DNA of 64,000 nucleotides from IMG/VR virus record IMGVR_UViG_2718218305_000006. The stretch is one strand, 5' to 3'. Each line of letters opens with the position of its first letter. The stretch's first letter is position 1. Source of the DNA: a virus (lineage: Duplodnaviria > Heunggongvirae > Uroviricota > Caudoviricetes). A program made the position numbers and the translations under genes. This document shows, in pieces, positions 1,926-35,646 of this stretch. The notes beneath the pieces are model-generated. The model ran no database searches. It worked only from the letters and a program-made list of their open reading frames with translations, and was not told the DNA's origin.

Positions 1926-2488
1926 TCGTAAATATGATATACCCGGAAATTACAGGCAAAAGCGGCGAGCATTTACGTCTAAAAACGCTGGAAGCCGTCT
2001 GGATCCAGGGGAAATTACGGATGTGGGGGCGTTGGTCGTATATAGGTGGTAGCAAAACAGGAAATATGTTCAATCAGTTGCTGGCATCCAAAAAACTGAC
2101 AAAAACCGCAATCAATGAAGCCCTGCGTAGAATCAGGGAGTCAGGGATTGATAAACCAGAGCTGGAAGCATTCTTGCGAGAGATGATCGCTGGCAGACAG
2201 AAGAGCTGGTTGTCTCACTGTACTGATGCAGAGGCGTTACGCATTGATGGGGTGATAAGTAAAGCGCTTGCACGTTATCCTGGATTGATTTATATCCTGC
2301 GGCAAAGATACGAAGGGCGGGGGATGAGTAAACGCAAAATGGCTGAATTGTTGAATGAGGTTCACCCTGAGTGGTGTTACGCCACGTGCCGTAATCGCAT
2401 AGATGCGTGGTTGAAAATGGCAGAGTTTATGCTCTATCTGCCGATGCGTGATGCATTCTCTTCCGGGGATCTAAAAACCGTCTGTTGA
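1922..2488 (+). CDS. late-gene antiterminator Q-like protein
   Basis: 188-aa ORF overlapping the rusA stop (GTGA), directly followed by a sigma70-like promoter and terminator; N-terminus shared with 42842..43408. Confidence 0.7.
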   Translation: MIVNMIYPEITGKSGEHLRLKTLEAVWIQGKLRMWGRWSYIGGSKTGNMFNQLLASKKLTKTAINEALRRIRESGIDKPELEAFLREMIAGRQKSWLSHCTDAEALRIDGVISKALARYPGLIYILRQRYEGRGMSKRKMAELLNEVHPEWCYATCRNRIDAWLKMAEFMLYLPMRDAFSSGDLKTVC

Positions 2489-2514
2489 CTCAATCTGTTA
2501 TCCGGGGCTATATT
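2485..2514 (+). promoter_or_regulatory. candidate late promoter pR' (TTGACT-N17-CTATAT)
   Basis: -35 TTGACT overlaps the Q stop codon; 17-bp spacer; -10 CTATAT/TATATT. Confidence 0.45.
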
Positions 2515-2577
2515 CCTCACGCGCCAGCAAAATCTGGCGTCGGGATTAGCACCCCGGATGTTTACGGAGCGATATGA

Positions 2578-2597
2578 GACGCGCCCGCGTCTTTTTT
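2578..2597 (+). terminator. rho-independent terminator (tR'-like)
   Basis: GACGCG-CC-CGCGTC hairpin followed by TTTTTT, about 65 nt downstream of the candidate pR'. Confidence 0.5.
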
Positions 2598-2761
2598 CAT
2601 ATCGTTTGCACAGTCACATTCGCGATTTATGGCGGGCTGTGTGGGGGAGCCGAAAGGCTCGCCGGTTTCCGTACCCGGTAGTGCTAACCCCGCACAGTTC
2701 GCCACCACGATGATTAGCACCTGACGGTGGCGATAATGTCCAAATGTACGGAGTTATCGTT

Positions 2762-3319
2762 ATGACCACTCAGATTTCTGTCGAAACTCTTTCCCCAATT
2801 ACACACAACCAAATTCCCGTTATCACTACCGAGTTACTGGCACAGCTTTACTGTACCGAGATCAACAACATCAAAGTAAATTACACCCGTAATTCCGAGC
2901 GTTTTGTTGAGGGTAAACACTTTTTCAAGGTTGTTGGTGATGAGTTGAAAAATTTGCGGGTTACTTTAAGTAACTCACAAACGCCTGTTTCCCCCAAAAC
3001 CCGCTCCCTCATCCTCTGGACAGAACGAGGCGCAGCCCGTCACGCCAAAATGCTCGAAACCGATCAGGCGTGGGATGTGTTCGAAAAACTGGAAGACTGC
3101 TATTTCAGACAAAAGGATCCGTCAGCGCCAGCTTCATGCCAGAAAAGTTACGACACGCGAGTTCTCTGTTATCAGCGAGGCGGTGTCACTGTTTCCACAA
3201 TTCAGTTGCGGGATGATGATATTGTTATTTCCCTTGAGTCATGGCTGGAACTGGCGAGAGCCAATGGTTGGTTTGTTGTTCGCAGAGATAAACTGGTGGA
3301 AAGGCTGATGCAGCTTTAA
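2762..3319 (+). CDS. ORF6N-domain (antirepressor N-terminal-like) protein
   Basis: GGAG RBS 8 nt upstream of ATG; motifs NSERFVEGKHFF..LWTERGAARHAKML..AWDVFEKLEDCYF resemble the ORF6N/antirepressor N-domain. Confidence 0.5.
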   Translation: MTTQISVETLSPITHNQIPVITTELLAQLYCTEINNIKVNYTRNSERFVEGKHFFKVVGDELKNLRVTLSNSQTPVSPKTRSLILWTERGAARHAKMLETDQAWDVFEKLEDCYFRQKDPSAPASCQKSYDTRVLCYQRGGVTVSTIQLRDDDIVISLESWLELARANGWFVVRRDKLVERLMQL

Positions 3320-28189: not shown

Positions 28190-29503
28190 ATGGCAGTAAA
28201 GATTTCAGGTGTACTGAAAGACGGCACAGGAAAACCGGTAGAGAACTGCACCATTCAACTGAAAGCCAGACGGACCAGCAGCACGGTGGTGGTGAACACG
28301 GTGGCCTCTGAAAATCCGGATGAAGCCGGTCGTTACAGCATGGACGTTGAGTACGGTCAGTACAGCGTCATTCTGTTGGTGGAGGGCTTCCCGCCGTCAC
28401 ATGCCGGGACCATCACCGTGTATGAAGATTCTCAACCCGGTACGCTGAATGATTTTCTCGGTGCCATGTCGGAGGATGACGTCCGGCCGGAGGCACTGCG
28501 CCGTTTTGAACTGATGGTGGAAGAGGTGGCGCGTCACGCTGAGGAGGCGAAGAAGAATGCCGGAGAGGCGGAGACGTCAGCGAGGAATGCCGGCATATCA
28601 GCCAGTCAGGCAGAAGAGAGCGCTGCAAATGCTGACACTTCAGCAGGGGATGCATCGGAGTCAGCCCGGCAGGCGGCAGAAAGTGCAGCCGCTGCAAAGC
28701 AGTCAGAGGAGGCGTCCTCGTCCTCGGCCTCTGCGGCCGCTCAAAAAGCCAGTGAGTCATCACAAAGTGCAGCAGAAGCTGAATTGTCAAGAAAGACGGC
28801 AGAAAGTGCAGCCGGTAATGCAGCCAGGGATGCAACGACCGCAGCAGAAAAAGCCCGGGAGTCAGCAGAAAGCGCACAGTCAGCGGAACAAAGCAGGATA
28901 GCGGCGGAAGAGGCCGTAAACCGAATCCCCACCGTGGTGGGGCCTCCCGGGCCAAAGGGGGAACAGGGTCCCGCGGGTCCTCAGGGGCCGAAGGGAGATA
29001 AAGGAGAGCGTGGCGACACCGGCCCGGCAGGGGCAACCGGTGAACGGGGGCCGGCAGGTGATGCTGGTCCGGCAGGCCCGCCGGGGCCGAAAGGTGACAG
29101 GGGAGAGCGGGGAGAGACCGGTCTGACGGGAAATGCAGGTCCACAGGGTCCAAAGGGAGATACCGGTGCGGCAGGCCCGGCAGGCCCACAGGGACCGAAA
29201 GGAGAAACAGGTGCGGCTGGCCCGGTGGGGGCGACCGGACCTCAGGGACCGAAGGGCGACCCGGGGGAGACGCAAATACGGTTCCGTCTGGGGCCGGGAA
29301 ACATTATTGAGACAAACAGCCATGGCTGGTTCCCGGATACAGATGGCGCACTCATCACCGGACTGACCTTTCTTGACCCCAAAGATGCCACACGGGTTCA
29401 GGGTTTTTTTCAGCATTTGCAGGTCAGGTTTGGTGACGGGCCGTGGCAGGATGTTAAGGGGCTGGATGAAGTGGGCAGTGATACAGGCAGAACAGGAGAA
29501 TGA
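28190..29503 (+). CDS. side tail fibre-like protein with collagen-like Gly-X-Y repeats
   Basis: Ala/Ser/Glu-rich coiled segment then long GPxGxxGxxG triplet run (about 28930..29280). Confidence 0.7.
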
Positions 29504-29506
29504 CAT

Positions 29507-29774
29507 GAACATATTAAAAAAAATTATGCAGCGTCTGTGTGGTTGCGGAAAGCATGATGACCGTGAACACGGGGAGTTACTTACAGCACAGCTGCGACTG
29601 GGACCGGCAGACATCCTGGAGTCAGATGAGAATGGCATTATCCCGGAGCAGGACAGGGTAATCACGCAGGTGGTGATACTGGATGCGGATAAAAAGCAGA
29701 TACAGTGCGTGGTAAGACCGCTGCAAATCCTGCGTGCTGACGGGACGTGGGAAAATATTGGCGGGATGAAGTAA
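29507..29774 (+). CDS. hypothetical protein (88 aa) downstream of tail fibre gene
   Basis: Internal ATG of ORF 29373..29774 just after the fibre stop; [19 protein letters not shown].. Confidence 0.35.
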
Positions 29775-29792
29775 CCCGACAGCTTCACAAAA

Positions 29793-29814
29793 CCGGAGTC
29801 CGGCTCCGGTTTTG
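29793..29814 (+). terminator. rho-independent terminator
   Basis: CCGGAG-TCCGG-CTCCGG hairpin followed by TTTTGTG. Confidence 0.45.
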
Positions 29815-30140
29815 TGTTGCAATGTCCGGGGGATATTTGTTAAGTAGATTGTATTGTATGTAAAGGCAGAGCTCCGAATTTTACTGTTGTAAGTGGGCCT
29901 GGCGGGAATGGTATCGCCAGCATCATTGGCTTGGGTCCAGTAAAAAGAGACGCAGAAAGATGCACAATAGGCACTACGCGTCATGCATGGATTAGGTCGC
30001 TCATTATTTACACAGTACTGCTAAAAAATTATTAAGGAAAGCGCGGCACTTCGTATGTAAGAGCGTGTCGCGGTTGGCTGGTGAACTTTCGATAGTGCGA
30101 GTATTGAATGATTTCCAGCCGTTACCGATTTACGTGTTTA

Positions 30141-30347
30141 TTAGCGAACAAACCACTCGTCAGCAGACTCCCAGGTATCTTTCAGCGTCTCCTGAACAAA
30201 AGTTTTTGCAGAATCTTTATCGGCGGTGCGAGTAACTGAAAGGCCATCGTTGCTGGTGGATTTGATGATCACTTCTACATCGTCATAACGTTTACTGACA
30301 CGTCGCAGCATTTCTTGTTGCAGGGCAGGAACAGAACCTTTTGGCAT
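30141..30347 (-). CDS. DinI-like protein
   Basis: 68-aa product from an internal ATG; C-terminus ..[20 protein letters not shown] resembles the DinI family end (..ILQETWESADDWFV). Confidence 0.6.
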
Positions 30348-30560
30348 TTTGTTGATTTTGGCTGCGGGGTATCTGTGGGGCATATATGGGACATAAAAAG
30401 GCCTCAAATAAACAGCAAAATCGAGATTAGGGATTTTTAGAAAAAATACAACCATCTGAAAAAACTTAGAAAACACCCAAAAACCCACAGAATAGTAAAA
30501 AACATCTATGAATTATGGATTTCAAGAGTCATTCAATCTAACTAATTGATAAATAAAAAA

Positions 30561-31112
30561 TTAACTTTTCATCGCTTCGTTATGGGGCATGGTTGGGGCA
30601 AACTCGCTTAACTGTGTATTTAACAGCGTTACCTGCGCATTATTATTTTCTGACATCCATTTCCCGTACACCTGAAACACCATTTGCGCATCTGCATGGC
30701 CCATCTGGTTTGCAATGAATGCCGGGTTAGCTCCTGCTGTTAACGACCAGCAGGCATAAGTGTGTCTCGACTGATACGATTTGCGATGGCGGATTCCGGC
30801 ACGCTTTACCGCTGCGTCCCACATCTGCCTTATTGAGTCAACGGTAAAATGGTCGCCATAATTTTTTACTTTCGCTGACACTTCAGGTTGAAAAACAAAG
30901 GTACATTTTTGTTTCTCTGTTCTGCCGAATTCTCTGAGGTGAACATCGATGATATGCTCTTTGCTCAGTCTCGTTAGTGCCATCTGACTCCGGAGAGCGT
31001 CGATTGCGGGCTTAATAAGGTGAATCACACGATTGGTTCCCGCCTGTGTTTTTGGTACTGTAAAACGGTCTTTTGCCAGATTTCTTCTGATTATCATTCT
31101 GCCATTGCGCAA
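30561..31112 (-). pseudogene. int: tyrosine integrase remnant, C-terminal catalytic half only
   Basis: ..TVPKTQAGTNRVIHL..SRHTYACWSLTAGANPAFIANQMGHADAQMVFQVYGKWM carries K/H-R-H-Y box residues; in-frame stop 6 codons upstream of the start; arm- and core-binding domains absent. Confidence 0.7.
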
Positions 31113-32338
31113 GATGGTTGCGGTTTTTCTTCATCATTTTCTTCTTCTGTTTCCTGCTTAGCAGACAGTTCGCGGTTAACTTCTTCCAGGATATCTTTTT
31201 CCGGTGTATGTCGTGCAGCAGTGAGAGTTTCCTTGCTGGGGTTCTCGTGATCAGTCTCCGTTAAGTAGGCGTTGATATACCCCTGAAGGCGTCCCGGGTA
31301 GTGATAAAACTCAGGGTGAGCGCTCCGGATAAGTGCAAAAATAGCGGCGCGGGAATAGTCCAGAATACCCGGGGTTGCGCGAAGTGCTGCGGACCATTCT
31401 TTGAACGGACTTTCTCTTTTCAGGACGATTTCTTTTGCGCGACGATAAACGCTGCCCGGAATTTCATAAATATTAAAATCCATCGGAAGTGTGGCTGCTG
31501 CAATCTCCACATCCAGCGTATCGAAGGTGTGTACTAAATTCGGATTGCGATCGGTTTTGTTCCCGCCACCGGCATTTGCACCGGAAGCCGTACGGGTGAT
31601 ACGCGAAACACGATTTCCTTTCATCCACTCTTTTGTCAGCAGACCCCGATCAGTGTAGTCAGCGTCCAGGTATGCCTCGAAAAAAGCAGTTATCAGTCCC
31701 AGGTCTGAATTACCGGGATTAGGGAAAACTTTGTCAGTGTCGCGTACCAGTTTGTGAAGGTCGCGAATCTCCAGCGGGTCGAGCAGCTTTGTTTTGTGAG
31801 AAATGGCCAGGGCAGTAACAGCCGGCAGTTCTTCCGCCCGTGCTATATGTAATGCCTGAAGTTCTTCCCGTGCAACGTGCGTTACTGGTTTTTCGCTGCC
31901 GTGTTGCGCAAGCCAGCGAATGGGCAGCTCCTGACCAGAAACCGGCAGGAGCATATTCTCCTCAATCTCCGTCATGTCTTCGCCGTTGACGTTGGTATTG
32001 TCAGTACTGGCTGGTTTCTCCTGCACGGAGGGAGAGGGCGCGATAAATACCATTGTAATGCCATCTTCCCCGCCTTTTTCGTATCGGTTGCAGAATTCGG
32101 TATCAAACACGCCTTCAGGTGGAAGGTCATTCACAACGGGTAAATGGACGCGAACGGGTTTTTTAAAGTCGTCTTCATCATAATCGTTGTCATCCATTGC
32201 GGTAATGCAGCGGGAGATGGCAACAGATAATTTTTTTGCTGTAGTCCAGTAAAAACCACCTTTAATTCCCAGACGTTTTCTGACTTTGTCATTTTTTGCT
32301 TCGCAATATAGCGCAAATTCTTCTTTATCAGTGCTCAT
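31094..32338 (-). CDS. hypothetical acidic protein (414 aa), ydfE-like position in a Qin-type operon
   Basis: Intact 1245-nt ORF overlapping the integrase remnant by 19 nt in another frame; Asp/Glu-rich stretches; no motif recognised. Confidence 0.55.
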   Translation of the reverse strand: MSTDKEEFALYCEAKNDKVRKRLGIKGGFYWTTAKKLSVAISRCITAMDDNDYDEDDFKKPVRVHLPVVNDLPPEGVFDTEFCNRYEKGGEDGITMVFIAPSPSVQEKPASTDNTNVNGEDMTEIEENMLLPVSGQELPIRWLAQHGSEKPVTHVAREELQALHIARAEELPAVTALAISHKTKLLDPLEIRDLHKLVRDTDKVFPNPGNSDLGLITAFFEAYLDADYTDRGLLTKEWMKGNRVSRITRTASGANAGGGNKTDRNPNLVHTFDTLDVEIAAATLPMDFNIYEIPGSVYRRAKEIVLKRESPFKEWSAALRATPGILDYSRAAIFALIRSAHPEFYHYPGRLQGYINAYLTETDHENPSKETLTAARHTPEKDILEEVNRELSAKQETEEENDEEKPQPSCAMAE

Positions 32339-32430
32339 TGATAAACCTCATTACAGATTTAAGGGTGAACAAATCCCTGCCATTGCTGGCATTTTTAATC
32401 CGTTGGTATGGTGTTAATATGGCTGGAGGG

Positions 32431-32619
32431 TTATCCAGCCGGTGTTTCGTTATTCAGGTACAGCGATACTTTTTTTACCGGGAGGCATTCACCAGAAATT
32501 TTTTGCTCGTCTCTTGCCTGGAGGCAGGATTCTTTACTGGCATAAATTCCGGTAATCACATTCTGTGATTCACCCGTTATAAGAAAAACCGTCATCATCA
32601 GTGCAAATGCTGAAGTCAT
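32431..32619 (-). CDS. YdfD-like small protein with N-terminal hydrophobic segment
   Basis: 62 aa, MTSAFALMMTVFLITG..; ATGA overlap with dicB; position as ydfD in the Qin dicB operon. Confidence 0.5.
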   Translation of the reverse strand: MTSAFALMMTVFLITGESQNVITGIYASKESCLQARDEQKISGECLPVKKVSLYLNNETPAG

Positions 32620-32804
32620 TGACGTTCTCCGAAAATACCAAGTTCAAGAAGAGCAATTCGGGAAAGTATGGAATTATCATTGAGCAGATAAGGCTCATAT
32701 TTCCTCATGTTAATGGCATCTTCAGTAAACTCCCGGTTACTGAGCAGAACACCAATATCAAAACAACCTTCAGACGTATTAACGTTTGGTAATAACGTTT
32801 CCAT
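32616..32804 (-). CDS. dicB: cell division inhibitor DicB-like
   Basis: 62 aa, METLLPNVNTSEGCFDIGVLLSNREFTEDAIN.. matches recalled E. coli DicB N-terminal half; lies just downstream of DicF. Confidence 0.7.
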   Translation of the reverse strand: METLLPNVNTSEGCFDIGVLLSNREFTEDAINMRKYEPYLLNDNSILSRIALLELGIFGERQ

Positions 32805-32973
32805 TATCGCGTCCTCAACAATGAATTTTGTGATGCAGTGCCTGGTGCCTCCAGGTGACGTTAACCAGTTAACAATTAACGCCGGATACAGAGAATCCAC
32901 CCATAACACTGTTTTTGGTTTTAACTGTTCCGCGTGCGCTTAGCCGCATTCACCGCATCACAAAATTCACTTT

Positions 32974-33031
32974 AAAAAGGGCGGCAGAGCAGCCACGGAG
33001 TAAAACTGATACCGCCAAACGTCACCAGAAA
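32974..33031 (-). ncRNA. dicF: DicF small RNA
   Basis: Minus strand reads TTTCTGGTGACGTTTGGCGGTATCAGTTTTACTCCGTGGCTGCTCTGCCGCCCTTTTT, matching recalled DicF with its terminator hairpin. Confidence 0.7.
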
Positions 33032-33368
33032 ATTGATAACAGAGGGCGTTGCAGCGGGGTTGTCACTTAAGCGTATGGTCAACCTGACAACCCGGTGTCC
33101 TCAATGGGGAAGGAATAACCCCGCCATACTTACCGCCGCGCCATTTCGCGGAGTGCCACAACCGGAAGCGCACGTTCGAAGAAATCTAACGACAAGCCTT
33201 CTAAGGGAAAGAGCTTCGCCGTACGCTTTCGCGTTATGCACTGACTTTTCAGGGAAATATCCTTTCAGTAAACTGTCAGTACCGGATTCTTATCCGTGTC
33301 CGGCGCACGACCACACGTGACAGCGTGTTGGTCTCCATTTTTAACCCAGAACCTCAATGGAGGATAAA

Positions 33369-33578
33369 ATGCCAAACAAAAAAAGAAATCCGCTTATTGA
33401 AAAACAGATTGAATGCCTGGTAAATCAACTCAGGCAATCAGGGTTATTAAAAACTCATTCAGAGTTGAGGCTCACAGAATCAGCATTCGACGATAAATTA
33501 AATAATGTCCTTTATAATGGCATTATTGATTTTAATCGTTCTGTTGGTCGCCGCGGCCCTGCTGGTGTTTCCTTATAA
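33369..33578 (+). CDS. hypothetical small protein (69 aa), convergent with dicB operon
   Basis: GGAGG RBS 6 nt upstream of ATG; an overlapping hydrophobic 32-aa ORF (33517..33615) is an alternative. Confidence 0.3.
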   Translation: MPNKKRNPLIEKQIECLVNQLRQSGLLKTHSELRLTESAFDDKLNNVLYNGIIDFNRSVGRRGPAGVSL

Positions 33579-34229
33579 TTACCAGTCAATCCAGAGTGGA
33601 CCGTGTTCAGCGTAAATATAACTGTACACATCCAGATTATATTTGTGGTCTGTTAAGAACAGGCCGCAAATACATGCCGAAGCTTCCAGTGCAGCGGCTC
33701 TGTTACTGAATAACCATGTAGCAACATTCCAGCGTTTTTCTGCATCCCAGTCTTTCTCAAGGCCTGATACCATGAAGAAACCGTTAGTGTTGCCATCAAA
33801 TAATTCTGTTTCCAAATTTTTAAGCAATGCCTGATGGACTCTTGCCAGGTATTCCGCCGGAATTTCGCCACGAATTCTGATGAGATTGTCATAAACAAAC
33901 ATGTTCCCCGCATATGGCGATTTTTCTTTCTTGTTTTTTAAACCAGCATCATGAGCAAACTGATCAATTTCTTCTTCCGTTGGTTTCGTATTGATGTTTT
34001 GCGCTGTCGTTTCTGCAATTTTATTTGCCACACTCTCTGAGTCGTGTTTATTTATAGACGCACAGAAATACAATCCGGTAAACGCATCGCGCACATTACG
34101 AGCCATATTATCAGTGTCTTTTTTCGTTACCGATTCCAATTCAAGTTCGTTCAGACGATGACGAAGTGTGTGTGCTGCAATCTCCTGGATTGAAGGAGGT
34201 AAATCTTTAAATTCCATCGTCAACCTCAT
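33579..34229 (-). CDS. hypothetical protein (216 aa), second gene of the coupled pair beside cI
   Basis: ATG overlaps the stop of the upstream 77-aa gene (TGATG); no family recognised. Confidence 0.6.
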   Translation of the reverse strand: MRLTMEFKDLPPSIQEIAAHTLRHRLNELELESVTKKDTDNMARNVRDAFTGLYFCASINKHDSESVANKIAETTAQNINTKPTEEEIDQFAHDAGLKNKKEKSPYAGNMFVYDNLIRIRGEIPAEYLARVHQALLKNLETELFDGNTNGFFMVSGLEKDWDAEKRWNVATWLFSNRAAALEASACICGLFLTDHKYNLDVYSYIYAEHGPLWIDW

Positions 34230-34462
34230 CAGTCAGTGTTTCTGGCTAACCAGCGACGCGCGCCAGCTTCAGTTTTAAACGTTTTGCTTTTGGTATACGT
34301 CATCGCGGTGAACGTACCGTCCTGGTTGGGGAACACGCCACATACCAGAGATTCGTTGTTGCCAAGATTGAGCGTATCCATGTTGACCTCATTTCCCCTT
34401 AACGCCGGGGTAGCGGAACAAAAACCTGCTGCATAGTTATTAAAGTTGAACCCTGCCGTCAT
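34229..34462 (-). CDS. hypothetical protein (77 aa), first gene downstream of cI
   Basis: Same strand as cI, separated by a 211-bp gap; coupled to the 216-aa gene. Confidence 0.5.
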   Translation of the reverse strand: MTAGFNFNNYAAGFCSATPALRGNEVNMDTLNLGNNESLVCGVFPNQDGTFTAMTYTKSKTFKTEAGARRWLARNTD

Positions 34463-34673
34463 GTTCTTACGCCTCGGGCTGGCTACTTAACCCCTGACCA
34501 CTGCCTGGTAACTCGAAGTATTGCCCTGCATTCTGTGGGGCGGGGTGAGGGAATGAATGAAGTTTAGAAAAACGAACATTTAAGGTCAATGTTTTTTTAT
34601 CAAAACATTTTAAGCAGGCAGCTGTTACGCCATCACTACGATGGCATACAGTTAATCAAATAGATGAGGTTGG

Positions 34674-35312
34674 TTAAATATCTTGTTGAATTTTAAAGCA
34701 TACTCCCAATATGCAAGATAGATCATCCAGCATAATTGAAGGGTAGCGAGGATTCGTGGGGACTAAAAGAATATCCGGCCCTTCTATCTCCAGTTTGCGA
34801 ATGACAGGCGTTGTGGTCCCTTTGGGTAAGGCAAGGACAATATTTCCTGGTTGTACGATTCGATCGGGATCAACAAAAACTGTTGAACCATTTGGGATGG
34901 AAACTCCACCACCAGATGTCGACATACTGTCACTCTCTAGAACAACAGCAAAGGTATTGGCCGGGATTTCTCCGACAAGCTGCACACAAGAGGTTATTGA
35001 GGAATTTTTCATATAATCACTCCAGCTTGCTGCCTGCTGAAGTGATAGTAGCGGAACCGTTTTTATCGGCGGTAAAGATAGATCAAGCGAATCACCTGTA
35101 TTTAACTCTCCTCCATTAAGAAGCCAATTTTCGTTTACTTTCAATATCTTTGCCAGTGAACTTATGTAACGCGAGGACGGCGCTCCTCCACCGTTCATCC
35201 ATTGACTTACGGAGCCTTTTGATGCGCCAGTGGCATTGACAAGGTCTTTGCCTTTCAAGTTTAGCGCATGCATACGTTGGGTTATGCGTTCAGATATTGT
35301 TTGCTTGTTCAT
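34674..35312 (-). CDS. cI: CI-type repressor (HTH + S24 LexA-like peptidase domain)
   Basis: 212 aa; N-terminal HTH (..GASKGSVSQWMNG..) and C-terminal S24-like segment; divergent from cro-like gene. Confidence 0.85.
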   Translation of the reverse strand: MNKQTISERITQRMHALNLKGKDLVNATGASKGSVSQWMNGGGAPSSRYISSLAKILKVNENWLLNGGELNTGDSLDLSLPPIKTVPLLSLQQAASWSDYMKNSSITSCVQLVGEIPANTFAVVLESDSMSTSGGGVSIPNGSTVFVDPDRIVQPGNIVLALPKGTTTPVIRKLEIEGPDILLVPTNPRYPSIMLDDLSCILGVCFKIQQDI

Positions 35313-35403
35313 GTTTTGATTTTAAAACACAGATGGTTTTGTTTCTTGACTTTCTTTGGTTTTGATTATTAAACTTTTGGCGTTCAGTTTTATGGAGCGA
35401 CTC
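35313..35403. promoter_or_regulatory. immunity-region intergenic (divergent pRM/pR with operators, inferred)
   Basis: 91-bp AT-rich spacer between divergent cI and cro-like genes containing TTGACT and partial palindromes. Confidence 0.4.
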
Positions 35404-35646
35404 ATGAAAAAATCAGAAGTATTAGGCTATTTTGGCGGAGTTGTTAAAACAGCCGCCGCTCTAGGAACGTCAAAAACCACAGTCAGCATGTGGGGGGAAG
35501 ACGTTCCGTGGAAATGGGCGTTGCTAATTCAGGCAGTCACTGCCGGGGCGCTCAAATATGAGTTACACATACCGACGGTTGTCATTCCCGATTCTGATCA
35601 TAATCCGCCTTCTAACCAAGGGGGGATTCATGAAAATCAAGCATGA
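35404..35646 (+). CDS. cro: Cro-like DNA-binding protein
   Basis: 80 aa, GGAG RBS, HTH-like ..AAALGTSKTTVSMW..; first rightward gene opposite cI. Confidence 0.65.
   Translation: MKKSEVLGYFGGVVKTAAALGTSKTTVSMWGEDVPWKWALLIQAVTAGALKYELHIPTVVIPDSDHNPPSNQGGIHENQA

What the first reader, a model, noticed from the sequence alone, without database searches (positions are those of the whole stretch)
30561..32338. Integrase reduced to its catalytic C-terminal half, overlapped by an intact 414-aa acidic ORF
The int-like frame keeps K/H-R-H-Y box residues but has an in-frame stop 6 codons upstream of its start and lacks the whole N-terminal half, so prophage 2 is probably excision-defective. The preceding 414-aa ORF overlaps it by 19 nt in another frame and is not integrase-like. 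It sits where ydfE sits in the Qin-type dicB operon, but I cannot assign a function.
Basis: partly seen in the sequence, partly recalled or inferred. Interest (0 to 1): 0.55.

Follow-up and report, generated by a model that had tools for sequence, protein, structure and literature searches.

The report
Deletion scar in O157 prophage Sp11
A single 2.3-kb deletion in a defective E. coli O157:H7 prophage (Sakai Sp11) fused the front half of an exonuclease gene to the back end of the integrase gene and removed the excisionase; both remnants are already annotated as pseudogenes, so this is ordinary prophage decay.

Summary
A 183-codon integrase-like frame (30561-31112, minus strand) is overlapped by 19 nt by a 414-codon ORF (31094-32338, minus strand).

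The 414-aa ORF is not an intact gene of unknown function. It is the first 413 residues of an 820-aa ExoVIII/RecE-type exonuclease, cut off before its nuclease domain.

An intact relative (E. coli 2003-3014) has the order dicB, DUF1482, exonuclease, xis, int. The window lacks 2,321 bp of that stretch, with the junction at 31098/31099. The missing DNA covers:
- the exonuclease C-terminal 406 aa;
- all of xis;
- integrase residues 1-253, which include the arm-binding domain, the core-binding domain and catalytic Arg I.

The locus matches Sakai prophage Sp11 pseudogenes ECs_2216 and ECs_2217 with one mismatch in 1,778 nt. The same junction occurs in 224 of 5,426 complete E. coli genomes, so it is not a sequencing error.

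Asadulghani et al. 2009 already listed Sp11 as having Int disrupted, Xis absent and ExoVIII disrupted. Their attP PCR screen of all Sakai prophages, run with and without mitomycin C, did not list Sp11 among the nine that circularised.

K-12 ydfE shows no direct similarity to the 414-aa ORF. It is the 5' remnant of another variant of the same exonuclease class.

Verdict: already known, low interest.

The parts
30561..31098 (-). 3' remnant of the intQ-type tyrosine integrase gene. It covers codons 254-431 of a 431-aa integrase plus the stop, and corresponds to Sakai pseudogene ECs_2217. It retains K269, R364/H365, H387 and Y397. It lacks the arm-binding domain, the core-binding domain and Arg I (R235).
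   Evidence: Window 30376-31106 aligns with the int region of L002 at 95.8% identity. Pfam domains of the intact integrase are, the Tn1549 Int alignment and the residue mapping. The fragment is 94% identical to K-12 intQ. Sakai and PGAP both annotate it as a pseudogene.
31094..31112 (-). Fusion junction, with the breakpoint at 31098/31099. The exonuclease frame runs 2 codons into or past the junction (E414, then TGA at 31094-31096). The apparent TTG 'start' of the int frame (31110-31112) lies in exonuclease-derived DNA and has no Shine-Dalgarno sequence upstream.
Evidence: Three-way alignment of the window with the int side and the exo side of L002. Only imperfect microhomology is present (TCAT..CCATT).
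31099..32338 (-). 5' remnant of an ExoVIII/RecE-type exonuclease gene. It covers residues 1-413, equivalent to residues 1-414 of the 820-aa intact relative, and corresponds to Sakai pseudogene ECs_2216. It contains the Pfam Exonuc_VIII N-terminal region and no nuclease domain. It has its own ATG and a GAGG ribosome-binding site.
   Evidence: Pfam PF06630, E = 1.6e-34. NCBIfam NF007259 gives 619.6 bits against a 1269 cut-off and covers model positions 1-409 of 877. The ORF is 57% identical to Rac RecE residues 50-397. Window 31098-33000 is 99.4% identical to L002 at the DNA level, and the protein alignment shows 3 substitutions and one 1-aa indel.
30523..30560 (.). Short spacer between the int stop codon and the prophage 2 / prophage 1 boundary. 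This is the Sp11/Sp12 border in Sakai, which maps to window 30522/30523.
   Evidence: The Sakai feature table places the Sp11 end at 2204088. Homology to the left end of Sp11 itself stops at window 30526.
32432..33030 (-). Upstream genes of the same early-left (dicB-type) operon: DicF sRNA (32979-33030), dicB (32617-32805) and a DUF1482/ydfD-like gene (32432-32620). The exonuclease remnant would be transcribed as part of this unit.
   Evidence: Rfam DicF, 75 bits. PGAP annotation of the identical TW14359 locus, mapped through.

Best explanation
The locus is a deletion scar at the integrase end of a defective lambdoid prophage, Sp11 of E. coli O157:H7.

The ancestral arrangement on the early-left operon was dicF, dicB, ydfD-like gene, an 820-aa ExoVIII-type exonuclease, xis, and a 431-aa intQ-type int. 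One 2,321-bp deletion joined nucleotide ~1,243 of the exonuclease gene to codon 254 of int. No IS remains at the junction and there is only a few bases of imperfect microhomology, so illegitimate recombination is the inferred cause.

The joint is out of frame. The exonuclease frame therefore stops two codons later, which produces the 414-aa ORF. The int frame is left with no real start, which explains the 19-nt 'overlap'.

The deletion removed three things:
- the exonuclease's Rv2179c-like DEDDh nuclease domain;
- the whole excisionase gene;
- the integrase's arm-binding domain, core-binding domain and first catalytic arginine.

Both remnants are therefore pseudogenes, and the prophage cannot excise by itself.

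Shown here: the missing segment, the junction, the domain losses, and near-identity to the Sakai pseudogenes. Shown in the literature: Sp11 was not among the prophages that gave circular forms. Inferred: the deletion mechanism, and that the 414-aa product, if made, has no activity.
For: - ORFs and the 19-nt overlap are confirmed.
- The intact reference L002 shows the order dicB, DUF1482, exonuclease (820 aa), xis (83 aa), int (431 aa).
- Window 30376-31106 aligns with L002 5877-6607, and window 31098-33000 aligns with L002 8920-10825, so about 2.3 kb is absent.
- Domains of the intact proteins: exonuclease has Exonuc_VIII at residues 57-189 and an Rv2179c-like domain at 639-810. Integrase has Arm-DNA-bind_2 at 9-71, weak sub-threshold matches to SAM-like core-binding models at about 85-190, and the Phage_integrase domain at 206-397. 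xis is DUF1233.
- Arg I (R235) lies upstream of breakpoint residue 254.
- The 414-aa ORF matches Rac RecE residues 50-397 at 57% identity. It covers only positions 1-409 of 877 in the NCBIfam ExoVIII model and scores below the cut-off.
- The Sakai record annotates ECs_2216 ('exonuclease') and ECs_2217 ('integrase') as pseudogenes at the Sp11 end. The 1,778-nt span differs from the window by one base, at 31810.
- PGAP annotates the pair the same way in TW14359.
- A junction-spanning 70-mer is present in 224 of 5,426 complete genomes; the others match only one half of it.
- Some strains carry an additional IS1203 insertion in the int remnant, which shows no constraint on it.
- PMC2669165 reports Int disrupted in Sp3, Sp11 and Sp12, lists Xis as '-' for Sp11, and finds the ExoVIII-type system intact only in Sp10. 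Circular forms were found for nine prophages, and Sp11 was not one of them.
Against: - Nothing contradicts the deletion model.
- The exonuclease remnant still has an ATG, a good ribosome-binding site and an open 414-codon frame, so a truncated protein could be made. Its inactivity is inferred only from the missing nuclease domain.
- The deletion mechanism is not proven. The microhomology is short and imperfect.
- The window's neighbouring prophage differs from Sakai Sp12. Published excision data from Sakai may therefore not carry over fully if that neighbour supplies Int and Xis in trans.
Confidence: 0.95

Rival explanations
1. The 414-aa ORF is a functional stand-alone gene. In this reading, the N-terminal RecE-like module is expressed from the dicB operon and kept because it does something useful without a nuclease domain.
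For: The ORF has its own ATG, a GAGG ribosome-binding site 8 nt upstream and an uninterrupted frame. PHROGs holds a family of about 348 profile positions (phrog_6528, 'exonuclease') that matches residues 1-332 end to end, so short versions of this module exist in phage collections.
Against: The frame ends exactly at a deletion junction, two codons into foreign out-of-frame DNA. The copies listed are 100% identical, so an open frame is expected from recent descent and says nothing about selection. No activity has been shown here for this region on its own, and from general knowledge it is dispensable for RecE exonuclease and recombination activity. Both the curated Sakai record and PGAP call it a pseudogene.
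Confidence: 0.05
2. It is a sequencing or assembly artefact. A frameshift or a collapsed repeat hides a full-length integrase.
For: Prophage regions of O157:H7 are repeat-rich and were misassembled in early genomes. The window's left half has no exact match among complete genomes.
Against: The difference from the intact form is a clean loss of 2,321 bp, not a 1-2 nt indel. The identical junction 70-mer occurs in 224 independently assembled complete genomes, including Sakai.
Confidence: 0.01
3. The prophage can still be mobilised despite the scar, because a co-resident prophage with an intact intQ-type Int and Xis acts in trans on its att sites. The neighbouring tandem prophage is one candidate.
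For: Intact integrases 99% identical to the remnant exist in other strains, including some O157:H7 strains next to a similar neighbouring prophage. The spacer between the int stop and the prophage boundary, which would hold the att site, is retained. The Sakai study documents extensive complementation between prophages (PMC2669165).
Against: In Sakai, Sp11 was not among the prophages that gave circular forms, with or without mitomycin C. The neighbour's int lies outside the window, so its state here is unknown. In Sakai the Int of Sp12 is also disrupted.
Confidence: 0.1

Closest known systems
E. coli O157:H7 Sakai prophage Sp11, pseudogenes ECs_2216 (exonuclease) and ECs_2217 (integrase)
   Same: This is the same locus. 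Coordinates and lengths match (1,245-bp exonuclease remnant). There is one mismatch in 1,778 nt, and window 30240-64000 is 99.96-99.98% identical to Sp11.
   Different: The adjacent prophage in the window is not Sakai Sp12. Its tail region is only about 97% identical, and the NleG effector and IS cluster is absent.
Intact dicB / DUF1482 / exonuclease / xis / int module of Qin-site lambdoid prophages (for example E. coli 2003-3014, NZ_CP101292.1)
   Same: Gene order is the same, with 99.4% DNA identity on the exonuclease side and 95.8% on the int side.
   Different: The window lacks 2,321 bp covering the 3' half of the exonuclease gene, xis and the 5' 59% of int.
RecE (exonuclease VIII) of the K-12 Rac prophage
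   Same: The 414-aa ORF is 57% identical to RecE residues 50-397, and the intact relative is 62% identical through RecE residue ~592. Both match Pfam Exonuc_VIII.
   Different: In the intact relative, RecE's own C-terminal nuclease domain is replaced by an Rv2179c-like DEDDh 3'-5' exonuclease domain. Neither nuclease domain is present in the window. There is no recT next to it.
K-12 Qin prophage ydfE - IS2E remnant - intQ
   Same: It occupies the same slot after dicB and ydfD. The integrase remnant is 94% identical to the window's fragment. ydfE is likewise a 5' remnant of a large phage exonuclease (phrog_2082 positions 1-257 of 823).
   Different: This is an independent decay event. It is IS2-associated, intQ keeps about 399 codons, and YdfE has no BLASTP similarity to the 414-aa ORF because it carries a different N-terminal module.

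Membership tests
Tyrosine recombinase / phage integrase (Pfam PF00589, lambda Int-like) | Complete catalytic set Arg I - Lys - His/x - Arg II - His - Tyr | tested here: not met
   K269, R364/H365, H387 and Y397 are retained. Arg I (R235, motif TGIRPGEL) lies upstream of the breakpoint at residue 254. The Pfam match covers only profile positions 52-165, against 4-165 in the intact protein.
Tyrosine recombinase / phage integrase (Pfam PF00589, lambda Int-like) | N-terminal arm-binding and core-binding (SAM-like) domains | tested here: not met
   The intact relative has Arm-DNA-bind_2 at residues 9-71 and weak, sub-threshold matches to SAM-like models at about 85-190. All of these residues fall within the deleted segment.
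Tyrosine recombinase / phage integrase (Pfam PF00589, lambda Int-like) | A genuine translation start for the reading frame | tested here: not met
   The only start is a TTG lying in exonuclease-derived DNA. There is no Shine-Dalgarno sequence, and in-frame stops lie six codons upstream.
Exodeoxyribonuclease VIII / RecE family (NCBIfam NF007259; Pfam PF06630) | N-terminal Exonuc_VIII region | tested here: met
   PF06630, E = 1.6e-34, residues 57-189. The ORF is 57% identical to RecE residues 50-397.
Exodeoxyribonuclease VIII / RecE family (NCBIfam NF007259; Pfam PF06630) | Full-length match above the curated cut-off | tested here: not met
   619.6 bits against a cut-off of 1269. The match covers model positions 1-409 of 877 only.
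Exodeoxyribonuclease VIII / RecE family (NCBIfam NF007259; Pfam PF06630) | A C-terminal nuclease domain (RecE-type, or Rv2179c-like DEDDh in this sub-lineage) | tested here: not met
   The intact relative has PF16473 at residues 639-810. The window ORF ends at residue 414 and has no such hit.
K-12 YdfE | Sequence homology to YdfE | tested here: not met
   BLASTP of the 414-aa ORF against YdfE gives only an 11-residue hit at E = 2.1. The two hit non-overlapping parts of phrog_2082.
K-12 YdfE | Same position, immediately downstream of dicB and ydfD and upstream of int | tested here: met
   K-12 annotation compared with the window and TW14359 annotation.
Sakai prophage Sp11 (ECs_2216 / ECs_2217) | Near-identity of sequence and of the deletion junction | tested here: met
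   One mismatch in 1,778 nt. The junction 70-mer is 100% identical in NC_002695.2. Flanking DNA is 99.96-99.98% identical.

The most novel reading that the evidence does not exclude
The truncated 414-aa RecE-like N-terminal fragment is translated from the dicB operon and has a function of its own. The N-terminal region of ExoVIII-type proteins could, for example, be a separable protein-binding or regulatory module that O157:H7 has kept after losing the nuclease.
Probability: 0.05. Interest if true: 0.3.

Novelty: already known. Interest (0 to 1): 0.07.

Why it matters
It matters little beyond correct annotation. The scar explains why Sp11 is fixed in the O157:H7 chromosome, and it is a clean clonal marker: one junction shared by 224 complete genomes. 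It also shows that the same gene slot (exonuclease, xis, int) has decayed independently in K-12 Qin through IS2 and in O157 Sp11 through a plain deletion. The defect and its consequence were already described for Sakai in 2009.

Tried and rejected
- **Homology of the 414-aa ORF to K-12 YdfE.** BLASTP found nothing significant. Only positional equivalence holds, plus a shared PHROG family over non-overlapping parts.
- **A frameshift hiding a full-length integrase.** Rejected. 2,321 bp are absent and the junction recurs in 224 genomes.
- **An IS-mediated deletion.** No IS sequence is present at the junction in the window. The IS1203 seen in some strains is a later insertion inside the int remnant.
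- **Other RNA elements in the locus.** The Rfam scan of 29500-35500 found only DicF.
- **An exact source genome for the whole window.** None of 5,426 complete genomes matches the left prophage above about 98%.
- **Searches not run.** I did not run the large protein-database searches or structure prediction. Annotated genomes and the literature already settled what the locus is.

Full report
**1. Observation**

One is 30561..31112 (-), 183 aa, with a TTG start. The other is 31094..32338 (-), 414 aa, with an ATG start. They share 19 nt (31094-31112) in different frames.

Translation upstream of the TTG shows two in-frame stops six codons before it. The 183-aa frame passes the Pfam Phage_integrase cut-off but covers only profile positions 52-165 of 172.

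**2. What the 414-aa ORF is**

It is not an orphan.
- It matches Pfam Exonuc_VIII (PF06630, E = 1.6e-34).
- It matches the NCBIfam exodeoxyribonuclease VIII equivalog over model positions 1-409 of 877, at 619.6 bits, below the 1269-bit cut-off.
- It matches PHROG 'exonuclease' families.
- It is 57% identical to residues 50-397 of K-12 Rac RecE.

It is therefore the N-terminal part of an ExoVIII-type protein and has no nuclease domain.

**3. The intact form and the deletion**

Megablast against 5,426 complete E. coli genomes showed that the integrase side and the exonuclease side each have many relatives. Only about 222 genomes hold them fused as in the window.

Strain 2003-3014 (locus L002) carries the intact arrangement: dicB, DUF1482, an 820-aa exonuclease, an 83-aa excisionase and a 431-aa integrase. 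Window 30376-31106 aligns with L002 5877-6607, and window 31098-33000 aligns with L002 8920-10825. The base-level three-way alignment puts the breakpoint at window 31098/31099. Only imperfect microhomology (TCAT..CCATT) is present and there is no IS sequence. The window therefore lacks 2,321 bp of the intact module.

Pfam on the intact proteins shows what was lost:
- the exonuclease's Rv2179c-like DEDDh 3'-5' exonuclease domain (residues 639-810);
- the whole DUF1233 excisionase;
- the integrase's Arm-DNA-bind_2 domain (9-71), the region giving weak, sub-threshold SAM-like core-binding matches (about 85-190), and the start of the catalytic domain.

The first catalytic arginine is R235, in the motif TGIRPGEL. 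It aligns with the TGLRISEL motif of Tn1549 Int. It lies upstream of the first retained residue, M254. Even the catalytic domain is therefore incomplete.

The joint is out of frame. The exonuclease frame reads one junction codon (E414) and then stops. The TTG that opens the int-like ORF lies in exonuclease-derived DNA and has no ribosome-binding site. This explains the 19-nt 'overlap'.

**4. Identity with a known locus**

Window 30240-64000 is 99.96-99.98% identical to prophage Sp11 of E. coli O157:H7 Sakai. The Sakai record annotates exactly these two frames as pseudogenes: ECs_2216 'exonuclease' (1,245 bp) and ECs_2217 'integrase'. They lie at the Sp11 end that abuts Sp12. The 1,778-nt span differs from the window at one base, 31810. 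PGAP annotates the pair in TW14359 as 'RecE family exodeoxyribonuclease, missing C-terminus' and 'tyrosine-type recombinase/integrase, missing N-terminus'.

A 70-nt probe spanning the junction is found in 224 of 5,426 complete genomes; the named hits listed are O157:H7 or O157. Other genomes match only one half of it. This rules out a sequencing artefact and indicates a single inherited event. In some strains an IS1203 has since landed in the int remnant.

**5. Literature**

Asadulghani et al. 2009 (PMC2669165) re-annotated all 18 Sakai prophages.
- Int is disrupted in Sp3, Sp11 and Sp12.
- Their table lists Xis as absent for Sp11.
- ExoVIII-type recombination genes are present in seven prophages and intact only in Sp10.
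- They predicted that Sp11 could not excise.
- attP PCR was run on all prophages with and without mitomycin C. It detected circular DNA for nine prophages, and Sp11 was not among them.

**6. ydfE and intQ**

In K-12 Qin the slot after dicB and ydfD holds the ydfE pseudogene, an IS2E remnant and the intQ pseudogene. The window's int fragment is 94% identical to IntQ. YdfE has no BLASTP similarity to the 414-aa ORF.

PHROGs adds a nuance. YdfE matches positions 1-257 of an 823-position exonuclease family (phrog_2082). The window ORF matches positions 245-378 of the same family. ydfE is thus the 5' remnant of a variant with a different N-terminal module.

**7. Mechanism and rivals**

Best explanation (0.95): a single out-of-frame 2.3-kb deletion created two pseudogenes and removed xis, leaving Sp11 unable to excise on its own. 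The deletion mechanism, illegitimate recombination at weak microhomology, is inferred.

Rivals:
- The 414-aa fragment is a functional stand-alone protein (0.05). It keeps an ATG and a GAGG ribosome-binding site. However, it ends at the scar, and with the listed copies 100% identical an open frame says nothing about selection.
- Sequencing or assembly artefact (0.01). Refuted.
- Trans-mobilisation by another intQ-type Int and Xis (0.1). This is conceivable because the neighbouring prophage in this window is not Sakai Sp12 and its int lies outside the window.

**8. Verdict**

The feature is already annotated and published. Novelty: already known. Interest is low.

Noticed in passing
window 1-29842 and 29775-30141: The left-hand prophage (late and tail genes) has no match above about 98% in 5,426 complete E. 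coli genomes, although the right-hand prophage is 99.97% Sakai Sp11. Between the tail-fibre C-terminal gene (ends 29774) and the DinI-like gene (30142-30384) there are only about 370 bp. Sakai Sp12 and TW14359 carry about 6 kb of NleG effector genes and IS elements (IS629, ISEc8, IS256 remnant) at that position.
   Followed up: partly
window 32979-33030 (-): A DicF sRNA gene (Rfam RF00039, 75 bits, full length) lies upstream of dicB (32617-32805) and a DUF1482/ydfD-like gene (32432-32620). This confirms a Qin-type dicB operon in Sp11.
   Followed up: yes
L002 7701-10163 (intact relative); window 31099-32338: The intact 820-aa exonuclease is a domain-swap variant of RecE. Its RecE-like N-terminal ~620 aa are 62% identical to Rac RecE. 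They are joined to an Rv2179c-like DEDDh 3'-5' exonuclease domain in place of RecE's own C-terminal nuclease, and there is no adjacent recT.
   Followed up: partly
L004 6079-8709 (K-12 Qin ydfE - IS2E - intQ): K-12 ydfE is the 5' remnant of another N-terminal variant of the same large phage exonuclease class (phrog_2082 positions 1-257 of 823). The same exonuclease-xis-int slot has therefore decayed independently in Qin through IS2 and in Sp11 through a clean deletion.
   Followed up: partly
L006 1662-3526 (O157:H7 strain 7636 and six others): A subset of O157:H7 genomes carries an extra IS1203/IS629 insertion that splits the integrase remnant. This is further decay of the same scar.
   Followed up: partly
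window 30142-30384 (-): A DinI-like gene (Pfam DinI, E = 3.6e-17) sits at the extreme end of the left prophage, just before the prophage boundary at about 30523. The left end of Sp11 itself carries a 97.5% identical copy, consistent with tandem prophages of the same att specificity.
   Followed up: partly
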